From NCBI GenBank assembly GCA_032718475.1, contig JAUCBJ010008960.1, forward strand, positions 1 through 42,594: a stretch of DNA of 42,594 nt. The letters run 5' to 3'. Numbering within the stretch: position 1 is the first letter of the stretch; each line of letters opens with the position of its first letter. This document shows, piece after piece, positions 7,214 to 41,225 of this stretch. The notes under the pieces were generated by a model. It had not been told where the DNA came from. It saw nothing but the letters and a program-made list of their open reading frames with translations, and made no database searches. A program made the position numbers and the translations under genes. Source of the stretch: Nemertoderma westbladi. Taxonomy: Eukaryota > Animalia > Xenacoelomorpha.

Positions 7214-8264
7214 GCAGACACTGGTGCAGAGCAGACAGTCTGACAGTGGTGCAGAGCAGACAGTGATGCAGACACCTGGTGCAGACAGTGGTGCAGACAG
7301 TGATGCAGACAGTGATGCAGACACCTGGTGCAGACACTGGTGAAGACAGTGGTGCAGACAGTGGTGCAGACAGTGGTGCGGACACTGGTGCAGACAGTGG
7401 TGCAGACACCTGGTGCAGACAGTGGTGCAGACACTGGTGCAGACAGTGGTGCAGACAGTGGTGCAGACAGTGGTGCGGACACTGGTGCAGACAATGGTGC
7501 AGACACCTGGTGCATACAGTGGTGCAGACAGTGGTGCAGACAGTGGTGCAGACACTGGTGCAGACTTTGGTGCAGACAGTGGTGCGGACACTGGTGCAGA
7601 CAGTGGTGCAGACACCTGGTGCAGAAAGTGGTGCAGACACCTGGTGCAGACAGTGGTGCAGACAGTGGTGCAGACACTGGTGCAGACAGTGGTGCAGACA
7701 CTGGTGCAGACAGTGGTGCAGACACTGGTGCGGACACTGGTGCAGACAATGGTGCAGACAGTGGTGCAGACACCTGGTGCAGACAGTGGTGCAGATAGTG
7801 GTGCAGACACTGGTGCAGACTTTGGTGCAGACAGTGGTGCAGACAGTGGTGCAGACACTGGTGCAGACACTGGTGCAGACATTGGTGCAGACAGTGGTGC
7901 GGACACTGGTGCAAACAGTGGTGCAGACAGTGGTGCAGACACTGGTGCAGACACTGGTGCAGACATTGGTGCAGACACTGGTGCAGACAGTGGTGCGGAC
8001 ACTGGCTGACTGGTGCAGACAGTGGTGCAGACAGGGGTGCAGACACCTGGTGCAGACAGTGGTGCAGACAGTGGTGCAGACAGTGATGCAGACAGTGATG
8101 CAGACACTGGTACAGACATTGGTGCAGACAGTGGTGGAGACAGTGGTGCGGACACTGGTGCAGACAGTGGTGCAGACACCTGGTGCAGACAGTGGTGCAG
8201 ACACTGGTGCAGACAGTGGTGCAGACACTGGTGCAGACACTGGTGCAGACAGTGGTGCAGACAC
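7214..8264. repeat. 12-bp minisatellite (GCAGACAGTGGT) with 13-bp variants (GCAGACACCTGGT)
   Basis: Directly visible array of ~1.05 kb. The unit has no stop codon in any frame, which explains the six-frame ORFs. Confidence 0.97.
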
Positions 8265-8269
8265 ATGCA

Positions 8270-9170
8270 TCATGCTGCATGAAGGCCTTTTAGCAGTTTC
8301 AACAGCCCTTTTCAGCATTTTTCATGCTGCACGAAGGCATCTGAACAGTTTCAACAGCTATTTTCAGCATTCTCATATTGCACAAAGCCCTCTGAACAAC
8401 TTCAAATGTTATTTTTTAGCATTTATGCTGCATGAAGGACTTTGAACAGTTTTATAACTTTCAACAGCAATTTTCAGCTTTTCTCATGTTGCACGAAGCC
8501 ATCTGAACAATTTCAACTGTTATTTTCAGCATTTATCATGCTGCATGAAGAACTCTGTGAACAGTTTTATCAACTCTTTTCAGTATTTCACATTCTGTGC
8601 GAAGGCCTGAAAGCTTCAAAACTTATTTTCAGTCTTTCTCAAGCTGCTCGAAGACCTCTGAACAGTTTCAACAGCTCTTTTCAGCATTTTTCATGCTGCA
8701 CGAAGGCATCTGAACAGTTTCAACAGCTATTTTCAGCATTCTCATATTGCACAAAGCCCTCTGAACAACTTCAAATGTTATTTTTTAGCATTTATGCTGC
8801 ATGAAGGACTTTGAACAGTTTTATAACTTTCAACAGCAATTTTCAGCTTTTCTCATGTTGCACGAAGCCATCTGAACAATTTCAACTGTTATTTTCAGCA
8901 TTTATCATGCTGCATGAAGAACTCTGTGAACAGTTTTATCAACTCTTTTCAGTATTTCACATTCTGTGCGAAGGCCTGAAAGCTTCAAAACTTATTTTCA
9001 GTCTTTCTCAAGCTGCTCGAAGACCTCTGAACAATTTCAACTGCACTTTTCAGCATTTATCATGCTGCACAAAGGACTCTGCGAATAGTTTCAAAAGCTC
9101 TTTTTTCAATATTTAAAATGCAGCAAGAATGTCTCTAACTAAAGCGTTTTGACAGCTTGTTTCAGTATTT
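8270..9170. repeat. ~51-bp monomer array organised as a 369-bp 7-mer higher-order repeat
   Basis: (c)tgaacag-type monomer starts at ~8341, 8392, 8442, 8503, 8558, 8607, 8658 and 8710. Near-identical duplication at offset 369 (ORFs at 8442 and 8811 begin identically). Confidence 0.92.
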
Positions 9171-9747
9171 GTGATGCTACTTGACTGCTTGAAGGCCTCT
9201 AAATAGATTTTGGTGGGGTTGAAATGAACATAAGAACCCAGCGTTCATGTCAATATTGACATTAGATGTCAATATTGACATGCAATAAAACATATCATTA
9301 AAATTATTACAAACAACAATATACATTGGTTGGATTCAACAATATTTTAATTAAAATAGATATTCTCTTTACAAAAAAACATTTTCTACTTTTCAAATCA
9401 CAATATTTAAAAAATTTATGATCAAAACATGTCAATATTGACATCATGTCAATTTTGACATGGAACATGTCAATATTGACAACATGTCAATATTGACAAA
9501 GTGCCCGACTGATTGTTTGTGATGACTATGATGTTATCTCTTATTATTCTATTTATACTATTTGCAGATTTGTACTATTTCTTATGCTATACCACGGTAC
9601 AGCGTTAACGTAGACGTAGAAGTAGGCTATTTGAAATTATTGAATTTATTACTTATATTAGTAATTACTAACGTTTGTTAAATAAACTGAAGTTGGCCTA
9701 AATTATTTACTTTTTTTCTGAAACCCACCGTCGTTTAATATATCGCT

Positions 9748-11928
9748 ATGTCGGCCACGGACAAAGAAAGTTCTGATTATTACCTCGGGAAAGTCGACGA
9801 AATATATGATATAGTAAAAGGATTTAACTCTACCGATAAGGAAGAAGTTGAGAAGGCCAGTAAACGATCGGACGATTTAATGAGAGAACTCAAAGTCAAG
9901 GAGGAATTAAAAGATGCCAAGATCCGAAGGGAAGACGAACGGGAGAAGGAGTTGTGTCCGATGAATCGATCGGTTTTAAATCGCAATGCGTTAGACGGGA
10001 GTCCCGCGGATAGCGATACGGCTACGATGGATCCCACAGCGTTTATGGACGTTTTTGGCCGTGATGCCGAACGGAGAGCCGAAAAGAGGCGAATCGCCCG
10101 CGGAAAAGCCGATAAATTCCGTGCAATCGGAAACGAATATTTTAAAAGCGGAAATTACGAATCTGCTGTGGAGAGTTATTCGCAGTCATTGGAGGAGTTG
10201 AAGGATAATCACCACGCGTGGTGCAACAGAGCTCAATGTTATATAAAACTCGCAAGATTCGAAGCCGCTATCAGTGACTGCGATTGGGCGATCAGAAGTA
10301 AGATTCACTTCGGCAAGGCGTACATACATAAAGGTCGAGCTTTGATTGGTTTGGAGCGGTTAGATGAGGCCGAGGAGGTTTATAATAATGGTATAGAAGA
10401 ATGCCCTGACGACGCCGCTGCCATCCGTAAATATTTGAAAGATCTTAAAGAAACAATTCGGAGAATAAATTCTGAGAAATTAGCGAAAGAATCCTTTGAA
10501 AACAAAGAAGGTGTTAACGAGACCGTTGTTGGTGTTATTGAGAGAATATTTAATGAGGAAAATCAACACCTTTCGTACTACACCGGTGGAATGTCTATAT
10601 TAACTCGGTTAATAGTTGGAGACACGGAGAGGGTTCTATTCCGGTTAAACAATGGGTTCTCCATCCAGGAATCCAACTCTATCGTCGCTAGTTGTTTATC
10701 GGCCCGCGGGAATTTGAACGCCGATGAAATTAATTTAGTGAGATCCTGGTATTTGTTGCTGAAACAAGCTTGTTTCAACCATATTGACAATATTAAGGCC
10801 ATGTTCCTGTCAATTACTAACTTTCGACAGATTATTTTGGGGCATTTGTGTGCCGAGATTAATGTAGACGTTAAGCTGGCGATTTTAGATTTATTTCGAA
10901 TGTTGTCCGAATTCTCGGAAAGTAAAGATTTACTAATAGACAAACTGTCGCCGCAACTCCTATTTAATTGTTTATTCGAATTGATTGTTCAGGGCGATCA
11001 CGTATCTCCTGTCTCCGCCTCTATTTTCTCGAACATTTGCGGTTGTAAATCGTTTCGAGCCGGATTCGAACTCGAACCGACGGCGAGTTTGTTACCGGGG
11101 TTCGAGAGAATTCTCGGTTCCATAAGGAACAACGTCGAGGTTGCCTTATCGGTTCTCTCCGCCGCCGTTAATCTTTGTTCTAATAAAAGAATCCTCAAAT
11201 CGATGACCAGTAGATCTCAGTTTTGGGATTGTTGCATAAAAGGTCTGGCGAGTCTGAAGAACATCGGACGTCGTTCTGAGGAAGTTGTCCTCCTATTAAT
11301 TATTCTCTCCAACTTATCCCTCGAGAAATCGGCTTTGTGTAAAGAAAAAAGCACGTTTATAGTAACCGAGTTGAATTATTTGCTACTGAATTCCACCGAC
11401 GACAACTTGTTAACCCGTTGCGTAACGCTATTGTCGCGCGTTGTAATCACTGATGACGCTATCTCCGTAGCAACCGATAAAGACGACGTTGTATGCAAAT
11501 TGATGTCATTAGCTAAGAGTTGTTGTGATGATAGTGACGTCACTTTGCTTCCGCCTTGTATTAAAGTTTTGGCGCTTTTAAGTCAATCGAAGGGGAATGT
11601 TCAGCTACTTATCGGAAGACTGGATGATAAACTGAGATTCATACGAAGTTTGTTATCAACAACTTACAATGATTTGGTTGTCGGGAACGCTTGTTTGATT
11701 GTCGGTAATTGCGCCGCCGTTAGTAGCATAGCCGGTTGTCTTGGCGACACGGACGTTATTCAGTCGTTACTCTCGGTCGCCAGTAACCATAGCAGCGAGA
11801 AGGTTAGAAGCAATGCCGCTATCGCTTGTGGGAAGTTGGCCAGTTCGAAGCAACGGAAACACTTGGAGAACATGAGGAAACTCGATGGAATGGGGATACT
11901 CCACGGTTGTGTGAAGTTTATTGATTAA
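9748..11928 (+). CDS. TTC12: Tetratricopeptide repeat protein 12 (TPR + ARM-repeat axonemal dynein assembly factor), single coding exon
   Basis: 726-aa ORF with three TPRs (FRAIGNEYFKSGNYESAVESY; WCNRAQCYIKLARFEAAISDCDWAI; KAYIHKGRALIGL) followed by an ARM-like helical region. The C-terminus (VVGNACL...RSNAAIACGKL...MRKLDGMGILHGCVKFI) resembles TTC12 as I recall it, and the length fits. Confidence 0.85.
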   Translation: MSATDKESSDYYLGKVDEIYDIVKGFNSTDKEEVEKASKRSDDLMRELKVKEELKDAKIRREDEREKELCPMNRSVLNRNALDGSPADSDTATMDPTAFMDVFGRDAERRAEKRRIARGKADKFRAIGNEYFKSGNYESAVESYSQSLEELKDNHHAWCNRAQCYIKLARFEAAISDCDWAIRSKIHFGKAYIHKGRALIGLERLDEAEEVYNNGIEECPDDAAAIRKYLKDLKETIRRINSEKLAKESFENKEGVNETVVGVIERIFNEENQHLSYYTGGMSILTRLIVGDTERVLFRLNNGFSIQESNSIVASCLSARGNLNADEINLVRSWYLLLKQACFNHIDNIKAMFLSITNFRQIILGHLCAEINVDVKLAILDLFRMLSEFSESKDLLIDKLSPQLLFNCLFELIVQGDHVSPVSASIFSNICGCKSFRAGFELEPTASLLPGFERILGSIRNNVEVALSVLSAAVNLCSNKRILKSMTSRSQFWDCCIKGLASLKNIGRRSEEVVLLLIILSNLSLEKSALCKEKSTFIVTELNYLLLNSTDDNLLTRCVTLLSRVVITDDAISVATDKDDVVCKLMSLAKSCCDDSDVTLLPPCIKVLALLSQSKGNVQLLIGRLDDKLRFIRSLLSTTYNDLVVGNACLIVGNCAAVSSIAGCLGDTDVIQSLLSVASNHSSEKVRSNAAIACGKLASSKQRKHLENMRKLDGMGILHGCVKFID

Positions 11929-13435: not shown

Positions 13436-14247
13436 GGCCAAAAAATTAGTGGGTCGATTTTTCAATGTTGTCGTGGCAGTATATATATTTGGATAAAGAC
13501 AATAAAGTTGTTGTATATTATCTGATATTCTATGGAGATTCCAAATATGCAATTGGTTTTGTCGTACCTTTTTTAGTTTTTGAAATATTTCACGAAAACC
13601 AATGGGTACCCAAAAAGTGGGTTCACCATGAAAGTTTCAATAATCCAGAACCTTTAAAACTCACCAGTCAGCCCTCATTTGTGACGTATAAAGGTTCTCA
13701 TGGATGGCGAATTTCCAGATGAATGGTTGATCTGGTATGCTACTTTTTACTGGGTGCCTAAATCTTAGTTCATAATGAAAGTTTCCGTTTTTTTGATAGC
13801 ATACTGTGTACATTCGAATCATCTAGCAAATACTTATCATTGAATTCCCTGTGGAAGAACACTTACATTGATTGTAAATCGCGGCAAATAAATAAGTATT
13901 AAATGTATCCGAAAGTTTCATGTTGAACCAAGATTTAGACACCCAGTGAAAAGTAGCATACCAGATCAACCATTCGTCTGGAAATTCGCCATCCTTGAGA
14001 ACCTTTATTCGTCATAAATGAGGGCTGACTGGTGAGTTTAAAGGTTCTGGATTATTTAAACTTTCATGGTGAACCCACTTTTTGGGTGTCCATTGGTTTT
14101 CGTACGACATTCGGTACGACAAAACCGATTGCATATTTGAAATCTCCATAAAATTTCAGATAATATACAACAACTTGATTGTCTTTATCCAAATATATAC
14201 TGCCCTGACAGCGTTGAAAAATCGACCCACAAATATTTTGGTTGGCC
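13436..14247. mobile_element. Fold-back MITE with ~350-bp inverted arms (Kolobok-like GG...CC ends)
   Basis: 13436-~13785 is the diverged reverse complement of ~13908-14247. TTAA flanks the right end (14248-14251); the left flank is GCAA. Confidence 0.85.
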
Positions 14248-14604
14248 TTAAGTAATAAGTACTGTATATATTTTGTATTTATTTTGGGGGAAAATGTGTA
14301 TATTTTGGGAAAATTTGTATTTATTTTGGGGTTTTGTATTTTATTTTGGTGTGTATAATTGGTTTTGGGGAGCATTTATTTATTTTGGTGTTGAATAATT
14401 GTTTTTGGTGTTGAAAAATTTATTTGGTGTTTGAATATTTTTATTTGAGGTGTGCTTCCTTGATGTCAGAAACTATTAACCAACCAGACCCCATACAGGT
14501 ACACTGAAAAAATTGTTCGGCGGTTCTTTTTTTAACCTCTGGTATAAAATTTTCAACCGATGGTTGCTCTTTTAAAACCGCTGGTTACAAATTGGCATAT
14601 GCTA

Positions 14605-14862
14605 AAACGGTGGTTTAAATTTTCCCAAAGTGCAGTGTTACATTGAAACGGTGGTTTAAATTTTCCCAAACTGCAGTGTTACATTGAAACGGTGGTTTAA
14701 ATTTTCCCAAACTGCAGTGTTACATTGAAACGGTGGTTTAAATTTTCCCAAACTGCAGTGTTACATTGAAACGGTGGTTTAAATTTTCCCAAACTGCAGT
14801 GTTACATTGAAACGGTGGTTTAAATTTTCCCAAACTGCAGTGTTACATTGAAACGGTGGTTT
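14605..14862. repeat. 41-bp sub-terminal tandem repeat (~6.3 copies)
   Basis: cggtggtt recurs at 14608, 14649, 14690, 14731, 14772, 14813 and 14854. Confidence 0.97.
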
Positions 14863-16112
14863 TCCGGATTGTAATTGCTATCATAAAACAGAAATAGTGT
14901 TTGACTTAGGAATAAACGGCGGTTCATATTATTTGATACAAAGTAACCGGTGGTTTAAAACTTACATTAATCGATTGGTTGAAAAATACATATAACCGTT
15001 GATTTAAAACACAGTAAACGGTGGTTGAAAACTTAGAATAACCGGTGGTTTACAAAAATTCAAATCACAGTTTGTTTACAACACAGTAAACGGTAGTGAT
15101 CAATAACATAATATCCAATCATGTAAACAATCTTAATACGTTTGTTAAGTACGTTTTTATGTAACATGTTTTATCAGGTAAATATTTAACAATTGTTTAA
15201 CATGATTTACATGTTTTACATTATTTATAACATAAATCAAGCATTCCCTTATATTTGTTGAATGCTACTATATCATGTTGAACAAAAATGTGTTATAAAT
15301 TTACAATGTATGTCTTAGTCTTAGGGATGTTTGAATAAACCGCCATAAGTTGACCGCTAATTCTGCAATTTGTTCATACTGTCATAGGCCTATCATAATT
15401 CAGTCATTTTTTGTGAAAGTGCCATTGCCATCCTGCGCTGTCCTGCAATCGCAGAATCGGTACCGGTACAATCCTGAAATTTGATTACAGTGATGTAGTG
15501 TATCACTGCCACTGGTACAGTAGTGGTACCGGTTGCCGGTAGTACAGAACAGTAGTACAGTACTGCTGTAGTAGGGCTGTGTAGGGTAGTGTACTCTTTT
15601 TGTTTTGTAGTTGTACCGGTACTATTTCTGTATTTCTTGGATTGTAGCTATATCTGTGTGTATATTACTGTATTATGAGTACGGTACCTGAGTACGGTAT
15701 ATTATATTTCTGTATTTGTTTATTATTTTGGTTTGGTTAGGCCTATGCAGGAATGCAGCTATGCGGTTGGTTAGTTCTGTAGTTCAGTAGTTGGCCAGGC
15801 CTTAACCCTAATTAAAACTGTCACATAGGCCAGTAGGCGTAACCGGGTGGTGAATTTTTAGGGGGGTCAGGGGTGGAAATTCTCTGCTACACCAGTACCT
15901 ACCGGTGTACCTACCAGTATCAGAGTATGCCGAGACCCGACACAACTTTAGGAGTAGGAAGGCCAATAAACGAAAGTTGTCCTCAACACCATCAACAGCT
16001 GCTAACGATAAAGCCGGTACTGAGGTACAGTTGCCTAGTAAAAGTTTAGATCAGGTTTCAGACATATCGCCATTGGATATACCGGTAGCTAAAGTTAATC
16101 TCAAGGAGCCAG

Positions 16113-16670
16113 ATGCAAGCAAAAGTGACCGAACGGAAAATAATAAATCGTCCTCCTTTGCTCTGCTTATCGGATGATGATAATATAGCTGAGGGATTGG
16201 AGATAGTCCCAAATCCACGAGGTGCAAAGAGGAAAGTAAGCATTTTTGATTCTTCTTCTGATGATGAATCCTCGGAATTATCTTATGGATCTAAATCGTC
16301 TAGTACCTGCAGTGGTCCATCTGATAGTCGAGATGAGGGTGACTATATTGGTGAGTTGGTTTGGGCGCGACAACGTATAACAAAACCATTCTGGCCTGCC
16401 CGAACTGAAAGAGCTCCAGAGGGTTCCGCAATGCCCAAGCCAAAGCATCCAGGGGACAACTTCAAGTGGATTTACTTCTTTGGTTCTAGCAATTTCTCAT
16501 GGATTAAAGACACTGGGGAATACATTGTTCCATATATTGAAAATCGCGAGCAGCATGGGAAAAGGAAGGCTTCGTCTACAGTCAAATTTCTAAAGGGACT
16601 TGATGACATTGATGAAGAATATACCGCAATGTCTGTTAGGAAAAATGATTGTCCATATCAGGAAGAGTGA
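16113..16670 (+). CDS. PWWP-domain protein (transposon cargo), 185 aa; N-terminus possibly frameshifted or spliced
   Basis: IGELVWARQRITKPFWPAR...WIYFFGSSNFSWI...IVPY...KFLKGLDDIDE matches the PWWP pattern (GDLVWAK..G.PWWPA...V.FFG..NF.W....L.PY + C-terminal helix). Preceded by an NLS-like AKRK and a Ser/Asp-rich tract. AATAAA at ~16788. Confidence 0.8.
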   Translation: MQAKVTERKIINRPPLLCLSDDDNIAEGLEIVPNPRGAKRKVSIFDSSSDDESSELSYGSKSSSTCSGPSDSRDEGDYIGELVWARQRITKPFWPARTERAPEGSAMPKPKHPGDNFKWIYFFGSSNFSWIKDTGEYIVPYIENREQHGKRKASSTVKFLKGLDDIDEEYTAMSVRKNDCPYQEE

Positions 16671-16829
16671 ATGGTTCAATACATTATCATTTAGGATTTA
16701 GGAAACTGTAAATTCATTTATTCAATAATTTGATTATCATTTATATTTGATAAACATATTTGATATTTGATATTATATTTGATATTCAATAAACCATTTA
16801 TTTGAAATCTAAAACACCGACTTGATCCT

Positions 16830-17440
16830 CATTTGAAACCTGAAACACCGGTTGATCTTAAATTAACCACAGGTTAAACCATATATTTGAAACCTGAAAC
16901 AACGGTTGATCCACATTAAACGCAGGTTTAACCATTTATTTTGAAAAAAACACCGGTTGATCTTAAATTAACCACAGGTTAAACCATATATTTGAAACCC
17001 GAAACACCGGTTGATCTTAAATTAACCACAGGTTAAACCATATATTTGAAACCTGAAACAACGGTTGATCCACATTAAACGCAGGTTTAACCATTTATTT
17101 TGAAAAAAAACACCGGTTGATCTTAAATTAACCACAGGTTAAACCATATATTTGAAACCCGAAACACCGGTTGATCTTAAATTAACCACAGGTTAAACCA
17201 TATATTTGAAACCTGAAACAACGGTTGATCCACATTAAACGCAGGTTTAACCATTTATTTTGAAAAAAAAACACCGGTTGATCTTAAATTAACCACAGGT
17301 TAAACCATATATTTGAAACCCGAAACACCGGTTGATCTTAAATTAACCACAGGTTAAACCATATATTTGAAACCTGAAACAACGGTTGATCCACATTAAA
17401 CGCAGGTTAATTCATTTATTTGAAACCTGAAACACCATTG
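16830..17440. repeat. ~54-bp sub-terminal repeat in a ~160-bp 3-mer higher-order unit
   Basis: ggttgat at 16850, 16904, 16955, 17009, 17063 and onward. The variant ccacattaaa occurs at 16911, 17070, 17230 and 17391 (periods 159/160/161). Confidence 0.95.
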
Positions 17441-19459
17441 AACTTAAGCACAACCACTGGTTGTTATACGAAAAACAACCTGAGGTTTAATTTATAAAAT
17501 TTAACCACAGGTTATCTTTGAATCGATAAACCTCTGGTTCCTCGAATTAACCGCAGGTCAAAAATTCACCAAATTAACCTGGGGTTATTTTCGAAAACCA
17601 GAGGTTTTTTAAAAAAGAACCACTGGTACGATTTTTCAGTGTAGTGTATGGGGGAAGGTTTGAACTTTTGAAAGCGATTATCTCAGAATGACATTTTTAC
17701 GCACGAAAAATTATATTCCTCCACCATTTCTTAACCGTTTTTTTTTGCAATTTTTGCTTTATGAAATGTAACTTCATAAGCTTCAATAAATGGAGGTCTT
17801 CTTGATTTCATAATTTTTCCACATTTTTTTAAATGAAAATTAGAAAAAAAACATTACTTTCTTATAGTGGCCTTGAGCGGCTAGTTTTGTAATCTTTTTT
17901 TTTGTTTTCCCGACCTTTGCATACTCGTAAGAACGACTTTATATTACTCAGGGAAACAAATCTTATTGGCTGGAGTGGTTTCCATAACAACAAACATCCA
18001 ATAAGTTTGTTTCTCCGAGGCAAAATTCCGGCAACAAATAAAAGATTAAATGGGGATGGTATATTAATTCGTTTATTATTCGACATTGACGCCCAGGTGG
18101 GATCGAAATGGTGACCGCCAGAATCCCGCGATTCAGATAAAAGATATACCTGGAAAAATTTTATTTCGTGGTAAATGATACAGTATCTTCTATGTCCACA
18201 ATTTACGTCCTCATGGCTTCCCATCTGTCAGTACAAGTCATATGTAGCCACTGTGCTCAATTCTTTCTACTTGGACGTCTTTATTATCCACTCGCTACAA
18301 TGAAATACGATAATCACGTTTAGCAGTATTTAATAAAACGAAACCACTAAATTTAACTTAATTACCAATTATATTTATTTGTTGAAACTAAAAAATGTCA
18401 AATTAAACGATTGAAAAAATCCCTCTGTTTATCCCACATATTTTGTTGAAGCGACACGATGTGCCACACGATGTGCCACACGATGTGCCACATACAACAA
18501 AACATGTGATTGACCAAAATCCGTCTTTCCTTATTGTACTGATATTAGGGTCATCGCAATTATCGATAAAGTGGGGTAGACAGACACCTTCAAAAGTAGA
18601 GTAAAACAAGAGTAGAGTTGGCTTTAAATAGGTCAGTCGACAACCGTCAATATCAATAAAAATGAAACAGTAATCTGTGTTTTTGATTCTCGTTTACTGT
18701 TTTGGTTGCCTCATTTCAAAGTAGAATTGGGATCTCATTATAGCTGGTCACTCAAGAACTCTGGAACCTTTTTCTTATATCATGCCATTTTTGTTTTAAT
18801 ATAGTAATACTGTGTATATCATGTTTAATTATGTAAATAAATTATGAATAAGGCCGTTAAATACTGATGAAATTGATTTTGTTGGTATTTTTTAACGCAT
18901 ATGGAGAATTCGATAATTCCGCTGTTTTACCCTTTTTTTATCTGCAGTACGGGAGGCCATAAAACAAACGTAGGGAACCTTTTCCATTGCGAATGACAGC
19001 CTATAATACCTATGGTTTATTGCAGATCCCATTCTAGGAAGCACCAACATGGGAGGTGAGAGTCCATCGACTTCCTCAGTGGTTCCAGAACTCTCTCACG
19101 GAAAAATCTGTACATAAACCGAAATAACATTTTAATTAAATGAAATTAAAATGAATTTTAATATTTACTACAGTATCATTTCTATATCAATTATTGATGA
19201 TTAAATTTTTCTAAATTTTGGTTGACATTGAATGGCGCTTTGGTGTTAGGAACTATATCTATTATAACTAACTACAAGATACTGTGATGAATGGTAGAAT
19301 TTTTTATGCTCTTTAAGCCAAGGAATGCCTGTTCCCCAAGATGAGTGATCTTCCGTATAAAACCCTTCCACTCTGTTTCCCAAGTTGCCTTGGTTCTCAT
19401 TTATCGACCATTCAAGAATGAAAGAGGGTTGGGTGTAGGTTACAGACAATTGAAGCAGC

Positions 19460-19720
19460 ACTGTACCCAAACAGTGCTGCCCCATCTAGGGATCGTACTG
19501 TACCCAAACAGTGCTGCCCCATCTAGGGATCGTACTGTACCCAAACAGTGCTGCCCCATCTAGGGATCGTACTGTACCCAAACAGTGCTGCCCCATCTAG
19601 GGATCGTACTGTACCCAAACAGTGCTGCCCCATCTAGGGATCGTACTGTACCCAAACAGTGCTGCCCCATCTAGGGATCGTACTGTACCCAAACAGTGCT
19701 GCCCCATCTAGGGATCGTAC
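19460..19720. repeat. Perfect 37-bp minisatellite x7
   Basis: actgtacccaaacagtgctgccccatctagggatcgt repeated without spacers. Confidence 0.98.
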
Positions 19721-19876
19721 CAGGCAGGGCCTCCTATCCAAACATTAATACTGACAACAAAAATGAAATCACCCAGAAAAGCCCCGTAATGAACATTCAC
19801 CTCGTTCCTCGTTGAACTATCCTTCTTGCCAGAAATATTTGACCAACCAGAACACAGGCAGCCCCAATTTTGGCGC

Positions 19877-20060
19877 GAAGGTTTAAACTTTGAAAGACAT
19901 TTTCTCGGAATGACATTTTTCATTTTCAAATTACTACTCCTCCGTCAATTTTGAACCAATTTTCTTCGTTTTGGCTCATTCGAAAGAGCTTTGTAAGTTC
20001 TTTAGAAGTTATCTTATGGAATTTTGATAAATAATAAAATTTGTTGTATTTAGCAAATTT
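19877..20060 (+). repeat. Dispersed repeat related to 17654-17830
   Basis: Both begin gaaggttt(g/a)aacttt(t)gaaag...tctc(a/g)gaatgacattttt...aaatta...tcctcc...aacc; diverged copies of an unclassified element. Confidence 0.55.
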
Positions 20061-20858: not shown

Positions 20859-22364
20859 TCAGTAATTATTCTGATATTGGTATCGATAACTTTCGGCCAG
20901 AAGAATATAAAACACAAAATACGCCAAATTCATTAAAAAAAATGACGCTGGAAATAATATGCGGCTGAATTTATCTATCTTTATATGTAGGTTTTCCTCA
21001 TGTTTCTTTATTTTATCAACTTTTCTTTTGGTCATTATTTTAAGCTGCCTTTGGGCTTCTGATGTGGAAGAATTCACATCCCCGAAATAAGGACTGTTGC
21101 GTGTTATCAAAGGGTTGACAACATGACAACTACATGTGATTCCCAATTTCGTTCCGGTATGTAGATCTTTTATTTCCGTTTCATTACTGAATGTATCTCC
21201 ACCTCCATTTGAATTCACGCGACACCGTGTCATATTTTCTCTTTCTGTGCGTTGGGATGTTGTGCTGTTGTTTGGGATCATTTGCTCAGGTGGGTGAGGT
21301 GTCAACTTGAACTCTGCCACGTCTTTATCTTTAGCTGTGAAGTAATGGACAGCACTGAATATTAAAAGTGCTCCAAAAACATACACGAAGCATATTGCGA
21401 AGTAAACATCCATGGCTTTAATCTCACTTACTTTGGGCATTGAGTTATGTGTTGATCCAATTAGTGTTATTAGTGAAAGAACGGTTGTTACTGATATGGT
21501 TGCTCGTGCCGGTACTGCGTTGGAATTAACCCAGAAAGACGCCCAAGAGAGAGCGACAATGAAGCACGCAGGTAGATATATGCTGATAAGATAGTAGGTG
21601 AGTTCTCTGTGGAATACAAACACTACTTGAAGGCTAGAGAATTGTCCTGTAGAGAAAATTAGAGAATATTCTTTCGTGCTAAAACCTCTCAAGGAAAACT
21701 GAGAGAGTTTAAGATTTTCCACTGGCTCTACTGCGCTTTGAAATTCATCAGTACTGTCTTTCCACTTCAAGCGAACGTGGTCTGTTGTGTAGCCATAATT
21801 TTCCATTACCAAATTACAAGACTGATAATCCATAGGAAAATATGATAACGACATAGGGCATTTTGATATAACCGTAACTCTTGCGCTGTAGAGGATTTCA
21901 CCAGTTGGGTATATACGTAGCAACACATTAGGTGTCATGACGTCATGCTTGGCAGATAGTAACGATTCAGGGAAATAGGTGTCTGGCAACCACAGTTGAG
22001 GAAGAAATGATGAAGATATTGCCAATGGTTCCCCATCAGTTGTTGTGGCATTGAATGCAAGACGAGGGTCAGTCCAGTACTGTCGTAATGCAAAGTCGAT
22101 TCTAAAGTTCATATCCGTTTCACTGACAGGCCCAATAGAATCAACGCTTATAGTTACAAATATATCCAGAGGGTATTCGTACATACAAGGGCGAAGGCGA
22201 TTGTCATAGTTTTGAAGAAGAGAGTCCAATAGATTACTCAAATTGTGTCTGTGTTTGGTTGAGTTCACATTATTTATATTGGATGCAGCCAATGAGTTAG
22301 TTAGTTGAAACACGAATAGCAATAATAAATAATAAAAATTATTATACATTCCGATTAAAATCAT
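20859..22364 (-). CDS. Cys-loop ligand-gated anion channel subunit (GABA-A/glycine receptor-like), single coding exon
   Basis: 501 aa: signal peptide, YDNRLRP, LRQYWTDPRL, LWLPDTYF, Cys-loop CPMSLSYFPMDYQSC, loop B ENYGY, M2 VPARATISVTTVLSLITL (PAR anion motif), M4 IDKFSRILFP. Confidence 0.95.
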   Translation of the reverse strand: MILIGMYNNFYYLLLLFVFQLTNSLAASNINNVNSTKHRHNLSNLLDSLLQNYDNRLRPCMYEYPLDIFVTISVDSIGPVSETDMNFRIDFALRQYWTDPRLAFNATTTDGEPLAISSSFLPQLWLPDTYFPESLLSAKHDVMTPNVLLRIYPTGEILYSARVTVISKCPMSLSYFPMDYQSCNLVMENYGYTTDHVRLKWKDSTDEFQSAVEPVENLKLSQFSLRGFSTKEYSLIFSTGQFSSLQVVFVFHRELTYYLISIYLPACFIVALSWASFWVNSNAVPARATISVTTVLSLITLIGSTHNSMPKVSEIKAMDVYFAICFVYVFGALLIFSAVHYFTAKDKDVAEFKLTPHPPEQMIPNNSTTSQRTERENMTRCRVNSNGGGDTFSNETEIKDLHTGTKLGITCSCHVVNPLITRNSPYFGDVNSSTSEAQRQLKIMTKRKVDKIKKHEENLHIKIDKFSRILFPASFFLMNLAYFVFYILLAESYRYQYQNNY

Positions 22365-24330
22365 TTTTAAATATTGTTTATTATTTACTTAAGTAGTATT
22401 ATCTACAGTGCAATAAACGAATTATAGATCTATTAATTGTCTCAATGTGTCTTAATTTCGTGTCCTGGAAGCTGGAATGAATCCTTTTCTAAGATGAAAA
22501 AAAAATCGAGTTGATTCAGCTGTTCCATTATTCGCATTCACCGATATCTCTTAGTTTATCACAAAACCGAAATAAATATGGATCCCATCATTTTTGTCTT
22601 TTTATAATAAATAGATTGTTATAGTGCTTTTGTTACAATTGTACCCTTCTTTATGTTAAGTTTGCTGGTTAATCTAAACGGTGAGGGTAGTGACATATTG
22701 TTGTAACGAAGATTAAATTGTGCTGTGTTGTTAGGGGTAACACGAATGCCTGTACAGCTAGTTTTCTAACTTCATATCTCACAATACTACAAACCACCTA
22801 GGCTTTCTTTTGGTTCGTATCAGAATTGTGTATGATTGGCACAAGTGATCTTCGCGGTGGAAGCCAAGACGACTACTTACAGTATAATGCACAAACAATA
22901 CAATTAATACAGACAACAACGATAATGAAATTATTAACAAAAGTTTACATCTTTAAATGAAATACCCAACCAACATTTTAATAGATGATATTACAATATA
23001 TTGAACACTAGGCCTAATGTTATAATAAGCAACAGTGGCATATATAATATTAATAAAAAATAATAAAAAAAAAACCAATTAAAAAACTGGCGCAAGTTAT
23101 ATATATTAAGTGGATGGTGGATAGTTGAATAGCAAGGAAATAGCTAGGTTCTTGAGATGTGGCGATGATTTTCACAGCCAGCTAAGTACGGTTGAGTCGG
23201 GTCACAGTTGTTGTAACTATTCAACCTGAAATAAGTAATAGTTGGAGCAGCACTGGCTTTAGAAAGTTGTATGTCAATCAAATCAATGTATGATGATTAC
23301 CCAATGTTTTTCTCAACAACAGATAGAGATGCGCACTCAATTTGAAGCGTCATGGGGAGACCTTGGCGATAGCGTGCACTTTTCCTCGACCACCTTAATA
23401 TATAACTGGTATGTTATGAAATAGAAAAATTCTAAAAGTAATGAGTGATCATAATATTGCTGATGATTTAGGTAAATTGTCCAAAAACATAGGATGGTTC
23501 TCAAAGAAGTGTAGAAGCTGCAAAGACAAAAATTCTGCAACAACTTGAGTTCCCCCAGCAGCAGGTAATTGTATGTACGTCAGTGTGTTCTTTCTTTGGG
23601 TGGCCTGGTTGTTCACGTTGGGTTAGAAGGTGTTGATGATTAAATATAATATCAAGGCTTTAAAATTAATGAAATAAAATAATTAAAATTAAAATTCTAA
23701 AACGACTATTTGAAAACCAATTTGTATTTAATCACGTGTTGAATTATTATTTTTACGATTATTCACAATACAAAACGATACTAACATTTGTTGTACCACG
23801 GAATACAAATAGCATATATTTTTTCGAGGCCAATGTCCGAGAAAAAAGTTTTCAGGAAATGCGAATAACAAAGTGCCCAAAAAGTATTTACAAAATGAAT
23901 ATTAAAATGCTGATTGGTCAGAAATCTCTAGCTGCTATGAATAATGCACTTTCCAATTCCTTAGTTTAGTTTAGTCGCTATTTGTCCATGAAAGTGTGTT
24001 TATGAGATAAGAAGCGATCAATTTGAAGCTCCACGCATCATTGCACTAACGTCCATATCAGCAACAAATTGTAGATAACGAAGTGCGATTATTTAATATG
24101 GGATCTTGGACCCATCCTTAAGCACTAACGTATACTGTAGCGCCTCTAATGGGAAAACGGAGTGTTTTGGAGTAAAAATAAACCATGGGGATGAAACGCG
24201 CAATCTGGAGCGGCAAATTTATTCCTTTCAAATGTTGTTGGGTGAATTTATTCCAGGCGGCAGTAGTATAGCCATTGCTGTTATATGGGAGTCCCTGACG
24301 GGCTCTTACAGTATAAACACACAGGATCCC

Positions 24331-25132
24331 CTACTACTACTACGATCGGCATGCTGCATTGCAACTGCATTATATATATATATATATTACAAATATATTA
24401 AGAATGCTGTGCCGGCTTGTCGGCAATGTCCTGCAAAGCGGAGGCGGTTCCGTTCAAGTGTCACGCTATGGGAGACTAATGGAGCACCTCCAATGTTGTA
24501 TAGAGTCTGATTGGGGATATGTTCATTGTACTTGACACAATGAACCCGGACGAACCCAGCGCAGCATTCTTGTGAAAGTGCCATCCAGAGATTTGGTATC
24601 CTCTGCAGTTAGAGCCCAGCATGGACTCCCATATAAGAGTACTGGTACTACTACTGCCATAAATAATCGAACCTAAAGGTTCCGTTTTATTCTATGGGAC
24701 TTCCAAATCTTGGACAGACTATTTAACGCTGTCCAACCTTCCCCTTACGTATCCGAAGGTCTTGTCCTGATTTTCTGATACATGATCCCTAGTAGCAGAT
24801 TTCATCCACGTGCGCAAGCAAGCCGTCCCTAGAGCTTATGCCCTTACGATCCGACCTTTCTTGAGGGCTGTCTAGGTTCACTGTCATGATTTTAGTCTTC
24901 TTGGTATTTATAAAATAACCAACACTAGATGCAACCTGCTCAAATGAGCAGAGGAGACTTTGGGCTCCCTCTAGTGATTGTGACAGTACCCCTAACTCAT
25001 CAGCAAAGTCTAGATCAATAAGGTATTTTGCTGGATTTCCTCTATTTCTTGTGCAAGTGGGGGGTGTTACTATCACCCCATCTTTATTAAGATGGACTAA
25101 GGACATGCGTAGAACATAATCAACCACAATTA
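24331..25132 (-). mobile_element. 5'-truncated, decayed RTE-like LINE copy
   Basis: Encodes VVDYVLRMSL...YLIDLDFADEL. Homologous to 28335-29258 and ends in the same gcagcatgccgat...(TAG)n tail. Confidence 0.9.
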
Positions 25133-25363: not shown

Positions 25364-26819
25364 TGAGTGAAATGGTAGATTTGGAAATACTACTTGACAC
25401 CTTGTGTGAAATTTACCTCGTCATGGACTTACATCTGTCAATACCCCCTGAAACCAGCTATTGAAACCACTCATTCTCGCAAAAATCCCAATATATAAAT
25501 ATGGTATACTTGTACTTTATTCACGTCACATTTCATGCTGACTTGAAACTAAAGTTATTGTACTGGCCTACAGTTAAGCAGCAAATTGAGAACATAATAT
25601 GTACATAACACATATTTATATATTGTAAAGTAAAGTAAATATTGGTAAAAAATATAAAATTCCTCATATTAATTCTGGGCGCGGTTATCTCCCGAAATGT
25701 ACAATGGTTCAGTAAATACAAAGAGATACACATGAATATTATCACACAATAGGGATTAAAATATTATACAGTTGTTGAATCGCAATTCAAGTTATAACCA
25801 AACGAAATGTTTGTACAGGCGAAAGAAAAAAATTATACGTGTGTTTTTCCATATGTATTCATAATGTTTTTATGTTCTGATATTGAGGTTTGATATTTAG
25901 ATTACTATCAGTCTTCAGCAGCACACGTCTTGGATAAATCCTTCCACCAGCCACAAGTAATCACGGATCTGGCTCTTTCCCTGAAGTTGGTAGGTTTCAT
26001 CTTACAGCGAAAAGAGTAATTAATTGCTTGTCATGCCACAGCTAATATCATACTTTTATTAACAGCATTGATGGGGGCAATCTTTTCATTTACAATTTCA
26101 GACTGATTGGTGCAGTACAGTACAGTTGATGCAGCATTGATTTCCTCAACCCATACTCATGTTAGGCTTACGCTATTGCCACATTTCGGATTTGAATGAT
26201 CATGATACCATGATTACCATTACTTATGGGATCTTTTTTCTTTTCCTTGGTTTAAATTTCAAAAAATGTGTATACATCTTGCCTTTAACCATTTAATCAC
26301 TGACAAGTGCCTCTCCATCACTTTAAGATTTGAATGATTTGTTTTCCCTACAGGAGGAGGTTTGTAAATACAGGGTCGGCGGTAATCATCCGCTGGTCAT
26401 TCTGCGCATTGACAGTCACAGACAGAGTTCCTATCATTTTTCTGAAATAGGATATTATCAATATGGGGAGACTCATGATAACTGTGAACTGTAAGTTTAC
26501 CTTGTTTTACCTTGACCAAATTTCGGTCAACATGGCTGCTGTACGTACACCCAAGGTAGTCCTCAAGAATATCAAAAAATAATCACACCCAGAAACATCG
26601 CGCAACACAAATTTCTGTGAGTGAGGAAGACAGAAACTTTTTGCATTTTCAATAAGTTCTATTCACAGCAACATTTTTAAATACTTTTATTAACAGCTAA
26701 TATTTGCAAAATAAAAAAAATCTAAGAGTTATTGTGGGAATTCATCAATGTTTAAGATGGTTTTTTTATGAGTTTATAATCATCACCACATTATGTATAA
26801 TCCTGCCTGCCTATATGGG

Positions 26820-29258
26820 AATGGGTATCCCCATCTATATCTCTGGAAATGGATTGTTTTCGGTTGGAACCCAGTTGAAGAAGCGAACTGGAAAGCTATG
26901 GACTCATAGTGGACCCAGTGGTCACAAGTCCCAGATAGACCATATTCTGTTTCGTAGGAAATACAGGAGCTCTATACAAGACTGTAATGCATTTACACTT
27001 CGACCCTTCTGCAGTGATCACCGCTTTATTGTGGCCAAGGTAAGACTTAGTATGCGTGCTAGCAGAACAACGAAATCTGCCTTGCCGCGGCATGACTGGT
27101 CCTCTCTGTTGCAACAGCCAAGTGTGAGATCCAGCTTCACAATACAGCTGAGCAACAGGTATGAGGCTCTTGCCTCTGAGGCGGCAGATCACTGTGAGGG
27201 CTATACTGCCTTCACAGAGGCAGTTAAGTTAGCAGCTGCAGAAACAGTTCCTGTATACCCTCGAAACAGGAAAAGGGCCCCCTGGACTGACAACAAAATT
27301 CAGAAATGCCGAAATGACCTCTATAAGGCGCAGAAAGAGTCCAGACTCAAACAGACTACAGCGACCAAGAATGCAGTTAAGGCTGCATCTAGGTCCCTGA
27401 ACGTGAACAGGCAGTACTCTGTTAATCTACAGGAGCTAATAAACCAACAAGTTGATGCCATCAATGATGCTGACGGCAGCAGGCAATCATCCCAGGCATA
27501 GAAATCGATCAACTTGCTTACTGTGCGGAAAAGCCAACCAACCACCAAGGTTAAGGCTGAATTACCCGCCGATCGCCTCAATGGTTGGAAGGCCCACTTT
27601 GAAAAGCTCCTCAATAATGACAGGGTATTGCCTGATAACTTTATAGAAGTAAAAGTGTCTGAGTCTGTACTCCCAGATATTCCCATTGGCAATATCTCCT
27701 TTCCAGAAGTGAAGGCTGCTGCAAAGAGCATTAAGACCAATCGTGCCAGTGGAGTAGATGGTGTTCCCCCTGAGGTCTTTAAAATACCTGAGTGTTTAAA
27801 GCTCATCTATCCCATCATAGTAGACATGTACCGAACAACAAGAGTCCCACAAGAAATGAAAACAAATAAGTTGGTGCCAGTTCCCAAGAAGGGCAACCTA
27901 ACACTCTATGGTTCTTTTCGGGGAATCTCATTGATCTCGATTGCTGCAAAGCTATAAAATAGAATTCTATTAAATCGCATCAGGGATCCCATCGAGAGAC
28001 TGCTCCGTGGAAATCAGAATGGGTTCCGTAAAGGTCGTGGGACCATGGAGCCCATTTTGGCACTTAGAAGGACAATTGAAGAGTTATCAAAATAGAAAGA
28101 CAGGCATCTGGTGTTATCTTTGTTGACTTCTTCAAGGCCTTTAATTCAGTCTCTCGCTCACGTATGTTCAGCATACTTTCATTATATCGGATTCCTGATG
28201 AAATTATTGCAGCAATCAGATCAGTATACGTTGGTTCGACAACATTTGTGTCTACTGTTGATGGTGACACAGAACCATTTGAAGTGTTATGGGGCGTCCT
28301 CCAGGGAGACACACTTGCACCCTTCTTGATCATAATTGTGGTTGACTCTGTTCTACGCATGTCCTTAGATCATCATAATGATGATGGGGTGATGATAACT
28401 CCACCTACTGGCTCCAGAAGTCCAGGAAATCCTGCCAAGTACCTAACTGATCTAGACTTTGCTGATGACTTAGGAGTACTCTCAGAATCACTGGAGGGAG
28501 CACAACGGCTCCTCAGCTCATTAGAACATGCTGTTTCTAGTGTTGGTCTTTTTATTAACTCCAGAAAGACCAACATTTTGACAGTTAACTTGGAAAGTCC
28601 TCAGCAAGTCTCTGATCGGCTGAGCATAAGCTCAAAGGATGGTATGCTTGAGCATGTGGACGACTTCTGTTACCTGGGATCATGGATCCGGAAGTAAGGG
28701 AATGGCATGGGCAGCCTTGAATAGGCTTTCCAGGATTTGGAAGTCACCGAGAATTAATCGGAAACTTAAGGTCCGATTATTTAGAGCAGCAGTAGTTCCA
28801 GTACTCCTCTATGGGAGTCCATGCTGGGCTCTAACTGCTGAGGACACCAAATCTCTGGATGGCACCATCACAAGAATGCTACGCCGGGTTCATTGTGTCA
28901 AGTACAATGCACACATCTCCAACTAGACACTATATAACATTGGAGGTGTCTCATTGGTTCCCCCAAGCTTGACACTAGAAAAAAATCGCCAACGCTTTGC
29001 AGGACATTGCTATCGCCGTGAGGACCATATGCATAATATGTGCATAATCTTGTACTTTGGCAGCCTCATGGAGTGAATAAGCATGGTGGACAGCCCATGA
29101 CTTTCTTGAGACGCATCTTAAAGGACACTGGCCTTGAAGATGCGGATGATCTAGCAAATGTCATGGGTGATAGGGAGTTGTGGCGGTGCAATTTTGTCGA
29201 CAAGCCGGCACAGCATTCTTAAAAATTCAGCTGCAATGCAGCATGCCGATCCTAGTAG
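26820..29258 (+). mobile_element. 5'-truncated RTE-like non-LTR retrotransposon (EN C-terminus + RT), inactivated
   Basis: KLWTH...KSQIDHIL...SDH (APE endonuclease end); FRGISLISIAAKL; GVLQGDTLAPF; LDFADDL; FCYLGS. Several stops and frameshifts. (TAG)n tail. 12-bp TSD tgcctatatggg at 26808-26819 and 29259-29270. Confidence 0.93.
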
Positions 29259-30660
29259 TGCCTATATGGGGAACGTAGTTAGTTACCCAATCCATGGGGA
29301 AGAGATTATCATGTCGGATAAAGGGTTTTAAGAGGGATCCGCGTTGTGGATGTAACTATTGATATGGCCTGGCCATCCTGCTAAAATCTACTGTGAATGT
29401 CTCGCACCTTGATAGTTATCTTCTAGCAGTGGGCATACAGTGGACGACTTTAGTTGAATTACTTTATTCTAAATTGTTTCATATCGTGGATAACACAGGG
29501 GATCTTCATGGTAGAATTACTGAGTTTTGGGCATTCTGCTCGGGTATTCAATACCCACCAATTGAGAAGTCAAGGCAGCCGCAATGAGTATTAAGAAGAC
29601 CAATGTACAAGCGGACTATGCGGACTACAGAATGCCAATTGTGGAATGCATGGTGGTGGCGCAAAATTTTTTCTTTGTTAGCATCTCATCTCAACGTTCA
29701 GCTATTGCCAATTAGAGAGTAGTAGAACTCATTGTGATTGGTGCTCCCATCTCAGTAACTTTAATTATATAACCAAACGTGGTGGTACCGGCATGTATTC
29801 CATTTATCATGAGTGTTCTGGCCTCACCTGAGCAACAAATTGGGGTTGAGCTTATGATTTAATTTAATATAATAATTTAAATATAAATATATTTTGTTCA
29901 GTAGAAACATAAAAAGATGTCGAGCTCAATATTTATTAATTAATACTTCCATTCTTGTAGGGATAAGATACCACCGAACTCGCCCCACTATGTGGCTCGC
30001 CCCAGAACACAGACATTATTACATTACAGTATACAGTGCAGTACTGTAGCACGTAGTCTACTTATGCACATACTGACGTACATCTCATTCTGTGTGTAGT
30101 CTGTGTTATCTAGGGTATCATGCAGCTGTCTGCATGATACCAGTACACAGCAGTATCTCTTTTGGTATTATATGTAGCACCTGTAGGTCAAATATAATTT
30201 GGTATTTCCGCTCATCTCGTCCGGTCCCCTCATGTTTCAGGCTTTAATACTGGAGGTCCGTTAGTGTAGGCTGACCTTCTTAGCTACGGCACTAGCGCTG
30301 TACTGTATTGGGGTTCAAACGCAATGATGTCCATCCAAATTTTGTTCACTCAAACTCTCAGCCTTCTTGACATTCGATCTACCTAATGAACTTAACGTGT
30401 GGGGGATGAAGCCTCTAATTATATCATGAGCCACGACAGTGGATTTTTGGAAACTGGCATCAGTAGTAGTCACATGTTCTCAACTGCAGGCGGGGATAAC
30501 GACCGCCTGGATGGGAAACATTGCGCTCATGGTATTGTCGCATTACGATACCCTTCTTTGTATGCTCTCCAATTCAGCCTTGAACTTAACCCAAATGTGA
30601 AATATTGCGAAATAGCTTAGATATGAGCTTGGGATAAATACAATGTTTTACAAGGCATAT

Positions 30661-35965: not shown

Positions 35966-36082
35966 TTCTTCTGACTGTGTTTGCGTTATATATATATCTA
36001 TGCTTACTCGTGTAATTGATCAATATAGTTAACCCGCTTCACTCACCACATTGTTCCTTACGCTATTGCTTCACTTCTGGCG
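35966..36082 (+). repeat. 5' copy of the 117-bp direct repeat of the retroelement
   Basis: Matches 41226-41342 at offset 5260. The last 63 bp are identical and the first part is diverged. Followed by TGGTGTCA (PBS-like). Confidence 0.92.
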
Positions 36083-36192
36083 TGGTGTCACCGTGTGCTT
36101 CGTTTCCCACTCCTCGCCATCTACTACAACAACAGATCCATCCACTCAGCCCTCCTTACGTCACAGACTTACGCTACCTACTTACCGTTATC

Positions 36193-41102: not shown

Positions 41103-41225
41103 CGCACCTCCCACGTTCCCGGACAGTTGCACCTTGTCACATGACTCGCCCCAACGCAGCCTGTCTCCAGTTCCATTCACAGTTCTGAATTTGTTCTACT
41201 TACATACGTCCTACCCGACTTATGA

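What the first reader, a model, noticed from the sequence alone, without database searches (positions are those of the whole stretch)
14500..17643. Transposase-less CACTA-like element whose only recognisable cargo is a stand-alone PWWP chromatin reader
Seen: TA|CACTG...CAGTG|TA with both sub-terminal arrays intact, enclosing a 185-aa ORF (NLS-like motif, acidic/Ser tract, PWWP with PFWP core) and a downstream AATAAA. Known: PWWP domains bind H3K36me2/3 nucleosomes (DNMT3, and LEDGF, which tethers HIV integrase); plant DNA transposons encode accessory and anti-silencing proteins (TnpA, VANC). Inference: either an element-encoded targeting/anti-silencing factor retained in a deletion derivative, or an animal 'Pack-CACTA' gene capture.
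Basis: partly seen in the sequence, partly recalled or inferred. Interest (0 to 1): 0.8.

Follow-up and report, generated by a model that had tools for sequence, protein, structure and literature searches.

The report
EnSpm-type transposon carrying a PWWP gene
A small jumping gene with no cutting enzyme of its own, likely present in tens of near-identical copies in this animal, carries a gene for a chromatin-binding PWWP domain that has lost half of its methyl-histone pocket, so the protein would likely grip nucleosomes without reading the mark; whether it is expressed or helps the element is untested.

Summary
The element is real: 14502-17641, CACTG...CAGTG ends, repeat arrays under both ends, no transposase. 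Empty-site copies of the host repeat carry one TA, so TA is a duplicated target site. The ends match zebrafish EnSpm ends at 10 of 11 bases. Contig depth suggests roughly 15-30 near-identical copies. The PWWP domain is confirmed by Pfam (5e-10), PDB hits and fold (HDGF/LEDGF type).

Two corrections. (1) The 185-aa ORF belongs to one variant: a 4-base duplication puts its ATG in frame. Another multi-copy form has an open frame of 244 or more codons and no in-frame ATG. (2) Two of four methyl-lysine cage residues (LEDGF M15, Y18) are Gln and Lys, also in the majority forms, so 'H3K36me reader' is doubtful.

Best reading (0.5): a long-resident accessory gene for a mark-blind nucleosome binder, spreading in a non-autonomous EnSpm. 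An old passenger capture (0.3) is not excluded. No genome, RNA, autonomous partner or host donor was available. Transposon co-option of Chromo and PHD readers is published; four searches found no PWWP case. The scan earlier noted a similar design with a BEN gene in a sea urchin.

The parts
14500..14501 (.). Left copy of TA target-site duplication
   Evidence: Empty-site copies of the host repeat run from 14501 through 23 letters starting GT to 17667; window 17644-17666 is also 23 letters, so the empty site has one TA (tables 5 and 5c)
14502..14535 (+). Left terminal inverted repeat; exact core CACTGAAAAA, imperfect beyond
14534..15100 (+). Left subterminal repeat region, with a 41-bp unit x6.3 at 14605-14862
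15101..15925 (+). Non-coding interior; possible promoter, first exon and intron (inferred, untested)
   Evidence: No Pfam match at cut-off in any frame of 40 aa or more; no RNA data
15926..16112 (+). Upstream open frame (basic NLS-like, low complexity). Cut off from the PWWP frame in this copy by a GCAA duplication at 16115; continuous with it in the other form
   Evidence: (table 4); no atlas hit
16113..16670 (+). 185-aa ORF: KRK motif, acidic/Ser tract, C-terminal PWWP
16350..16622 (+). PWWP domain, HDGF/LEDGF/GLYR1 type; W94 and F122 kept, Q87 and K91 replace the M15 and Y18 cage positions
16788..16793 (+). AATAAA, candidate polyadenylation signal, just ahead of the right array
   Evidence: use untested
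16800..17607 (+). Right subterminal repeat region, 54-bp units in a 160-bp higher-order repeat at 16831-17447
17608..17641 (-). Right terminal inverted repeat ending CAGTG
17642..17643 (.). Right copy of TA target-site duplication
   Evidence: collapsed contigs of X1 and X3 end at 17643 (table 8)
14448..14499 (+). Left half of the high-copy host repeat that the element interrupts
17644..17780 (+). Right half of the interrupted host repeat; an uninterrupted diverged relative lies at about 19810-20000

Best explanation
This is a transposase-less DNA transposon with EnSpm-type ends and a duplicated TA target, likely young and present in tens of copies, that carries a PWWP gene which is likely a long-resident accessory gene and is predicted to encode a nucleosome/DNA binder that does not select H3K36 methylation. 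Shown: ends, TA duplication, repeat arrays, several multi-copy forms, PWWP domain, loss of two cage residues, no transposase. Inferred: a related autonomous EnSpm supplies transposase in trans and acts on the TIRs and subterminal motifs. Also inferred: the gene occupies the 'second protein' slot that TnpA fills in plant Spm, its basic PWWP surface holds nucleosomal DNA, and its acidic tract could contact histones, which would help keep the element open or tether the transposition complex. This window's copy is a variant in which a 4-base duplication cuts off at least 63 N-terminal codons and puts an internal ATG in frame.
For: Element. TA duplication. Ends match zebrafish EnSpm-N49B (2-bp TSD; PMC13189230) at 10 of 11 bases, which meets the Repbase rule (PMC4455052). 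Interior contig depth is 17, 18 and 27 times that of one flank contig in X1, X2, X3 (rough). A second insertion with a different left flank also starts at TA (X4 record 25). Gene-like layout: complete domain, stop 16 codons after the Pfam match, AATAAA, then the terminal array. The domain is C-terminal, whereas 21 of the 28 PWWP-bearing best hits have it starting within the first 19 residues. Forms that differ 5' of the domain all join the same PWWP segment, whose depth is 1.3, 1.3 and 2.9 times the backbone in X2, X3, X4. The other form keeps 244 open codons across an in-frame 6-base indel. Cage: 22 of 22 aligned homologues have M/L/V/I at the M15 position and 21 of 22 have F/Y at the Y18 position; this protein has Q and K. 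In PSIP1, M15A and Y18A strongly reduce K36me3 specificity but affect nucleosome affinity much less (PMC3663649, passages). The basic GKRK stretch aligns with LEDGF's GKPNKRK.
Against: No autonomous partner was seen. Seven of 8 listed substitutions between this copy and the contig majority forms change the amino acid, which fits no selection (P=0.46 under neutrality, 8 sites). The 5' coding part is unstable: a frameshift and forms that skip 299 or 417 bases. The longer form has no in-frame ATG, so it needs an unproven splice. The host is fast-evolving and intron-poor (TTC12-like gene uninterrupted, best hits 30% identical), so neither the absence of introns nor the 45%-or-lower identity of the PWWP hits separates native gene from capture. 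The PWWP region is only slightly basic overall (15 K+R, 13 D+E). The tree did not place the domain.
Confidence: 0.5

Rival explanations
1. Pack-type passenger: the element captured the 3' end (last exon, stop, polyA signal) of a host PWWP gene some time ago. The cargo rides along without function and is eroding.
For: A last-exon capture would also give domain + stop + AATAAA. Substitutions 7 nonsynonymous to 1 synonymous. Frameshift and deletions 5' of the domain. No in-frame start in the longer form. Degenerate cage. The atlas's top feature hits are Peregrin-like PWWP clusters (0.87, lead only); peregrin's PWWP is C-terminal (recalled). Host fragments in plant CACTA elements are reported (PMC8978399, passages).
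Against: The domain still scores above the Pfam cut-off and folds confidently with an alignment. The PWWP segment is shared by all forms seen and is deeper than the backbone. Sequence and fold hits are HDGF/GLYR1-type, not BRPF, and those hosts mostly carry PWWP at the N-terminus.
Confidence: 0.3
2. One reading: an element-encoded H3K36me2/3 reader that steers insertion into transcribed gene bodies, as LEDGF does for HIV integrase.
For: Closest solved structures are LEDGF/HRP PWWP domains. W21 and F44 equivalents are kept. A one-residue loop insertion could let another residue rebuild the pocket.
Against: M15 and Y18 equivalents are Gln and Lys, and E49 is Asn. The same codons are unchanged in the majority contigs of X3 and X4, whose five differences each are all accounted for elsewhere (tables 3 and 8). 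The one mapped insertion sits in an intergenic high-copy repeat.
Confidence: 0.12
3. The PWWP gene is a host-benefiting gene family amplified inside transposon ends, or the ends belong to another CA..TG lineage such as an animal counterpart of fungal ESTA rather than EnSpm proper.
For: TA targets with CA..TG ends define fungal ESTA (PMC12730594, section 16). Contigs of X1 and X3 end at CAGTG+TA, which hints at a TA preference.
Against: The ends match zebrafish EnSpm at 10 of 11 bases. Copies are near-identical and variable in structure, as expected of active elements.
Confidence: 0.08

Closest known systems
Non-autonomous zebrafish EnSpm-N49/N49B_DR (CMC-EnSpm; PMC13189230, passages)
   Same: Ends CACT-x-AAAAAA (10 of 11 first bases), 2-bp target duplication, 2.5-3 kb size, no transposase
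   Different: No PWWP cargo is mentioned in the passages read; its reported duplication is CA, here TA
Maize En/Spm TnpA and animal TRC/SmTRC1 (PMC1636069, passages)
   Same: Subterminal repeats (plant CACTA, PMC8978399); a second, non-transposase protein; 2-bp duplication in animal TRCs
   Different: TnpA acts on the element's promoter and is not reported as a PWWP protein; animal TRC ends are CCC; plant CACTA makes 3-bp duplications
Chromo- and PHD-bearing transposons (Grau-Bove et al., bioRxiv 10.1101/2021.11.30.470311, section 10 and passages)
   Same: A transposon carries a chromatin-reader domain
   Different: Those are fusions to transposon domains, mostly Chromo or PHD; here PWWP is not fused to a transposase and PWWP is not named in that section. 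Supplementary Table 6 was not seen and could list PWWP fusions
LEDGF/PSIP1, HDGF/HRP and GLYR1/N-PAC PWWP domains
   Same: Same fold and FFG..N..W motif; basic patch after the barrel
   Different: PWWP is C-terminal here; no dehydrogenase domain; M15 and Y18 cage positions lost; 45% identity or less
Fungal ESTA and TET-carrying transposons (PMC12730594, passages and section 16)
   Same: CA..TG ends with TA duplication; transposons that carry a chromatin-acting accessory gene
   Different: Fungal, carry TET/JBP and a transposase; PWWP does not occur in that paper's main text

Membership tests
Non-autonomous EnSpm (CMC/CMCT), Repbase rule | 5'-CA..TG-3' termini | tested here: met
   CACTG...CAGTG; rule in PMC12730594
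Non-autonomous EnSpm (CMC/CMCT), Repbase rule | Same TSD length as a known member and at most 1 mismatch in terminal bases 1-11 | tested here: met
   2-bp TSD; 10 of 11 against EnSpm-N49B_DR, compared by eye with the TIR printed; rule
Non-autonomous EnSpm (CMC/CMCT), Repbase rule | Subterminal repeats under both ends | tested here: met
Non-autonomous EnSpm (CMC/CMCT), Repbase rule | An autonomous partner with an EnSpm-type DDE transposase shares the ends | not testable with these tools
   No genome held; read-laying gives no sequences of partners
Autonomous EnSpm/CACTA | Encodes a DDE transposase with C(2)C and H(3-4)H motifs | tested here: not met
   No Pfam match at cut-off in 22 other frames of 40 aa or more
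Plant CACTA in the strict sense | CACTA core and 3-bp TSD | tested here: not met
   CACTG and 2-bp TA
ESTA (EnSpm-like, TA TSD) | Family-wide TA target specificity and ESTA-type transposase | tested here: inconclusive
   TA at this site, at one other left junction, and at collapsed contig ends; no transposase to test
Pack-type gene-capturing element | Cargo traceable to a host donor gene | not testable with these tools
   No genome; tree unresolved
PWWP domain (PF00855) | HMM score above the gathering cut-off and PWWP fold | tested here: met
   40.1 against 25.6 bits; pLDDT 87.8 with a 23-row alignment; Foldseek E 4e-6 to HRP3
H3K36me-reading PWWP (LEDGF/HDGF type) | Complete cage M15/Y18/W21/F44 | tested here: not met
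   Q, K, W, F at these positions (residues from PMC3663649 and PMC3119473)
GLYR1/N-PAC | N-terminal PWWP plus dehydrogenase-like domain | tested here: not met
   PWWP is C-terminal, stop follows, no NAD-binding match

The most novel reading that the evidence does not exclude
A lineage of animal EnSpm transposons encodes its own LEDGF-like PWWP nucleosome tether as a separate second gene, and transposase-less copies that keep this gene amplify because they supply it in trans, as a helper for targeting or escape from silencing.
Probability: 0.25. Interest if true: 0.8.

Novelty: new variant of a known kind. Interest (0 to 1): 0.5.

Why it matters
HIV integrase borrows a host PWWP protein (LEDGF) to reach chromatin. 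A cut-and-paste transposon with its own PWWP gene would be a natural, self-contained version of that arrangement. It would also say what the poorly known second proteins of animal EnSpm elements can be. The half-lost cage makes a sharp, cheap prediction: mark-blind nucleosome binding. If the gene is only a passenger, this is an animal example of Pack-type capture, which is of modest interest.

Tried and rejected
No whole genome was held, so copy number, partner and donor could not be searched directly.

No RNA holder was listed among 8 runs; this says nothing about expression.

Word-based protein searches found no hit at E 0.001 or better among 29 near-length candidates and 373 longer ones; weak evidence. 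The HMMER search of 1.84 billion representatives gave 29 hits, 28 with PWWP and none above 45% identity.

Metagenome scans (protein; TIR motif) and a viral scan gave no loci.

The single-sequence fold failed (pLDDT 34.7); the alignment-based fold worked, but its rows are PWWP proteins, so it leans to that fold.

A 34-row domain tree left the query in no supported group.

No separate low-depth donor-like contig showed over the PWWP region at 80-85% likeness. The tables are cut and contigs show presence only, so this is not counted as evidence.

The in-window relative of the host repeat confirms the insertion point but is too diverged at the site to count TAs (scores 147.5-152); the contig joints decided that.

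A BRPF/peregrin origin was considered from atlas hits at 0.87 but is not backed by PDB sequence or fold hits.

The upstream 63-codon frame had no atlas hit.

Two papers were not held, and PMC3485254 gave nothing on termini. Right-array joints in contigs (skips of 164, 289, 448 bases) may be assembly collapse of tandem units and were not used.
Full report
Observation. The sequence shows TA|CACTGAAAAA at 14500 and its exact reverse complement ending at 17643. This is the only exact inverted 12-mer pair starting TACAC in the window; the imperfect TIR extends 36 nt at 75%. Under the left end lies a 41-bp unit x6.3 (14605-14862) and under the right a 54/160-bp array (16831-17447). An A(A/C)C-N1-3-GGT motif occurs 21 times in 599 bases on the left and 52 times in 861 bases on the right, against 71 times in 39,450 bases outside the element. 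ATG 16113 opens a 185-aa ORF, with AATAAA at 16788. Of the 23 stop-free frames of 40 aa or more inside the element, one matches Pfam PWWP (E 5.4e-10, 40.1 bits, cut-off 25.6) and the other 22 reach no cut-off. There is no transposase.

It is a mobile, multi-copy element. No genome was held, so I used public contigs. Four of 8 listed runs, from 3 studies of one coded organism, hold the stretch. The element interrupts a high-copy host repeat. Other copies of that repeat run from 14501 through 23 letters beginning GT to 17667 (1 contig in X4, 3 in X2 for this joint), and window 17644-17666 is also 23 letters, so the empty site has one TA and the TA is duplicated. A diverged, uninterrupted relative of the host repeat lies at about 19810-20000 (its left-flank score was reached by 0 of 1000 shuffles). 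The reconstructed empty site folds as a hairpin with the TA in its loop. Interior contigs are 17, 18 and 27 times deeper than one flank contig in X1, X2, X3. The tool warns that depth is not copy number, so 'about 15-30 copies' is rough. The interior collapses into single contigs with 0-8 differences each, which suggests a young family. One X4 contig enters the left end at TA from a different flank, and the X1 and X3 contigs stop at CAGTG+TA, a hint of TA preference.

Class. A zebrafish non-autonomous CMC-EnSpm has the TIR CACTCAAAAAAATGA and a 2-bp duplication (PMC13189230, passages). This element matches it at 10 of the first 11 bases, which meets the Repbase rule for non-autonomous elements (PMC4455052, passages). 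CA..TG ends with 2-5 bp duplications mark the wider CMCT group, and a fungal TA-specific branch, ESTA, exists (PMC12730594, passages and section 16). Animal CACTA relatives with 2-bp duplications are described in PMC1636069 and PMC4298943 (passages). It is not a plant-type CACTA (3-bp duplication, PMC8978399 passages).

The ORF is a variant. Contigs of X1, X2 and X3 lack 8 bases at 15916, 6 at 16080 and 4 at 16115; X4's main contig has the window's form. The 4 bases are a GCAA tandem duplication. Without them the basic, low-complexity frame from 15926 joins the PWWP frame: 244 open codons and no in-frame ATG, so an upstream exon would be needed (splice untested). With them, the internal ATG 16113 is in frame. 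Other multi-copy forms skip 15896-16196 or 15831-16249 with unknown letters between (the second joint has only 29 letters on its short side, next to a common genomic motif). All of them join the same PWWP segment, which is 1.3, 1.3 and 2.9 times deeper than the backbone in X2, X3, X4. Eight substitutions in the ORF were listed (the table omitted 17 rows overall): 7 change the residue, against 79% expected without selection (P=0.46). This gives no sign of selection on this copy, with little power.

The domain. PDB sequence hits are LEDGF, HRP and HDGF (E from 4.8e-7). The alignment-based model has pLDDT 87.8 and matches HRP3/PSIP1 PWWP structures. The best natural hits are 45% identical or less, several of them N-PAC/GLYR1-like. 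That distance is uninformative, because a neighbouring uninterrupted TTC12-like host gene is itself only 30% identical to its best hits. PSIP1's cage is M15, Y18, W21, F44; M15A and Y18A strongly reduce specificity for K36-methylated nucleosomes but affect affinity much less, while W21A and F44A abolish binding (PMC3663649, passages; cage also in PMC3119473, passages). Here the equivalents are Q87, K91, W94, F122. Among 22 aligned homologues (22 of the 28 PWWP-bearing hits), 22 have M/L/V/I at the first position and 21 have F/Y at the second. A one-residue loop insertion makes the register slightly uncertain, but neither placement supplies an aromatic residue. The majority contigs of X3 and X4 carry the same codons. 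The basic stretch after the barrel is kept. Prediction: nucleosome or DNA binding without K36me selectivity.

Accessory gene or passenger. For an accessory gene: a complete domain, a stop, a polyA signal and then the terminal array; C-terminal placement, unlike 21 of 28 PWWP hits in which the domain starts within 19 residues; retention across forms; a long open frame in the other form. For a passenger: a last-exon capture gives the same layout, the 5' part is eroding, substitutions look neutral and the cage is degenerate. The tree did not place the domain. I give 0.5 to a long-resident accessory gene, 0.3 to an old passenger, 0.12 to a true K36me targeting reader and 0.08 to the rest. The transposon identity itself is much more secure than the function.

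What is known. Co-option of chromatin readers by transposons is published: 823 candidate fusions, mostly PHD and Chromo (bioRxiv 10.1101/2021.11.30.470311, outline, passages and section 10). PWWP is not named in that section; its Supplementary Table 6 was not seen and may bear on novelty. Fungal transposons carry TET/JBP genes (PMC12730594). Four full-text searches for PWWP with transposon terms (listings only, except the preprint) showed no PWWP-encoding CACTA/EnSpm. Repbase, Dfam and subscription journals were not searchable. The other six searches served termini, cage and capture. Within this scan no look-alike of this DNA or protein was found. One unchecked note describes a transposase-less sea-urchin family with subterminal arrays and a BEN gene (e1-9810128), a similar design that I did not test; the 8 notes were not used.

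Verdict. A real and apparently young non-autonomous EnSpm-type family with a PWWP gene, which my searches did not find described. The 'K36 reader' label is doubtful and function is unshown. New variant of a known kind; interest 0.5.

Noticed in passing
window 14478-14501 joined to 17644-17664: The insertion site is the loop of a DNA hairpin (about -10.8 kcal/mol) in a very high-copy host repeat that also has 20-bp TTTTGG-rich tandem units at 14260-14440; the layout recalls Helentron/DINE-like elements (recalled, untested).
   Followed up: partly
window 13438-14241: Fold-back element with 259-bp arms at 85% identity, ending near GGCC/TTAA; possibly a Kolobok-like MITE (recalled, untested), directly left of the host repeat.
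   Followed up: no
window 9739-11928 (+), 20859-22388 (-), 31763-33235 (-): A TTC12-like TPR gene and two Cys-loop ligand-gated ion channel genes are each one uninterrupted frame; these genes are usually intron-rich in animals (recalled), so the host looks intron-poor and fast-evolving.
   Followed up: partly
window 35966-41342: LTR-type retroelement with one open 1632-codon frame (RT and RNase H matches) between 117-bp direct repeats at 92% identity.
   Followed up: no
window 24423-25132, 26701-29259, 41413-41974: Several broken pieces of a LINE-like element (RT match at 28080-28694), some in inverted orientation or 95% alike.
   Followed up: no
window 15727-15823: A TTAGG/TAACCCTAA-like motif shared with many other contigs (about 20 loose-ended contigs per deep run) lies just upstream of the coding frame; possibly a common promoter or intron motif of this genome.
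   Followed up: no
window 7256-9104 and 19460-19720: A 12-bp satellite x84 next to a 52-bp satellite with a 369-bp higher-order repeat, and a perfect 37-bp x7.1 array.
   Followed up: no
runs X1-X3 versus X4, over window 14968-16225: The dominant form of the element differs between samples (X4 has the window's indels and its own substitutions), which may mean separate recent expansions or only contig simplification.
   Followed up: partly
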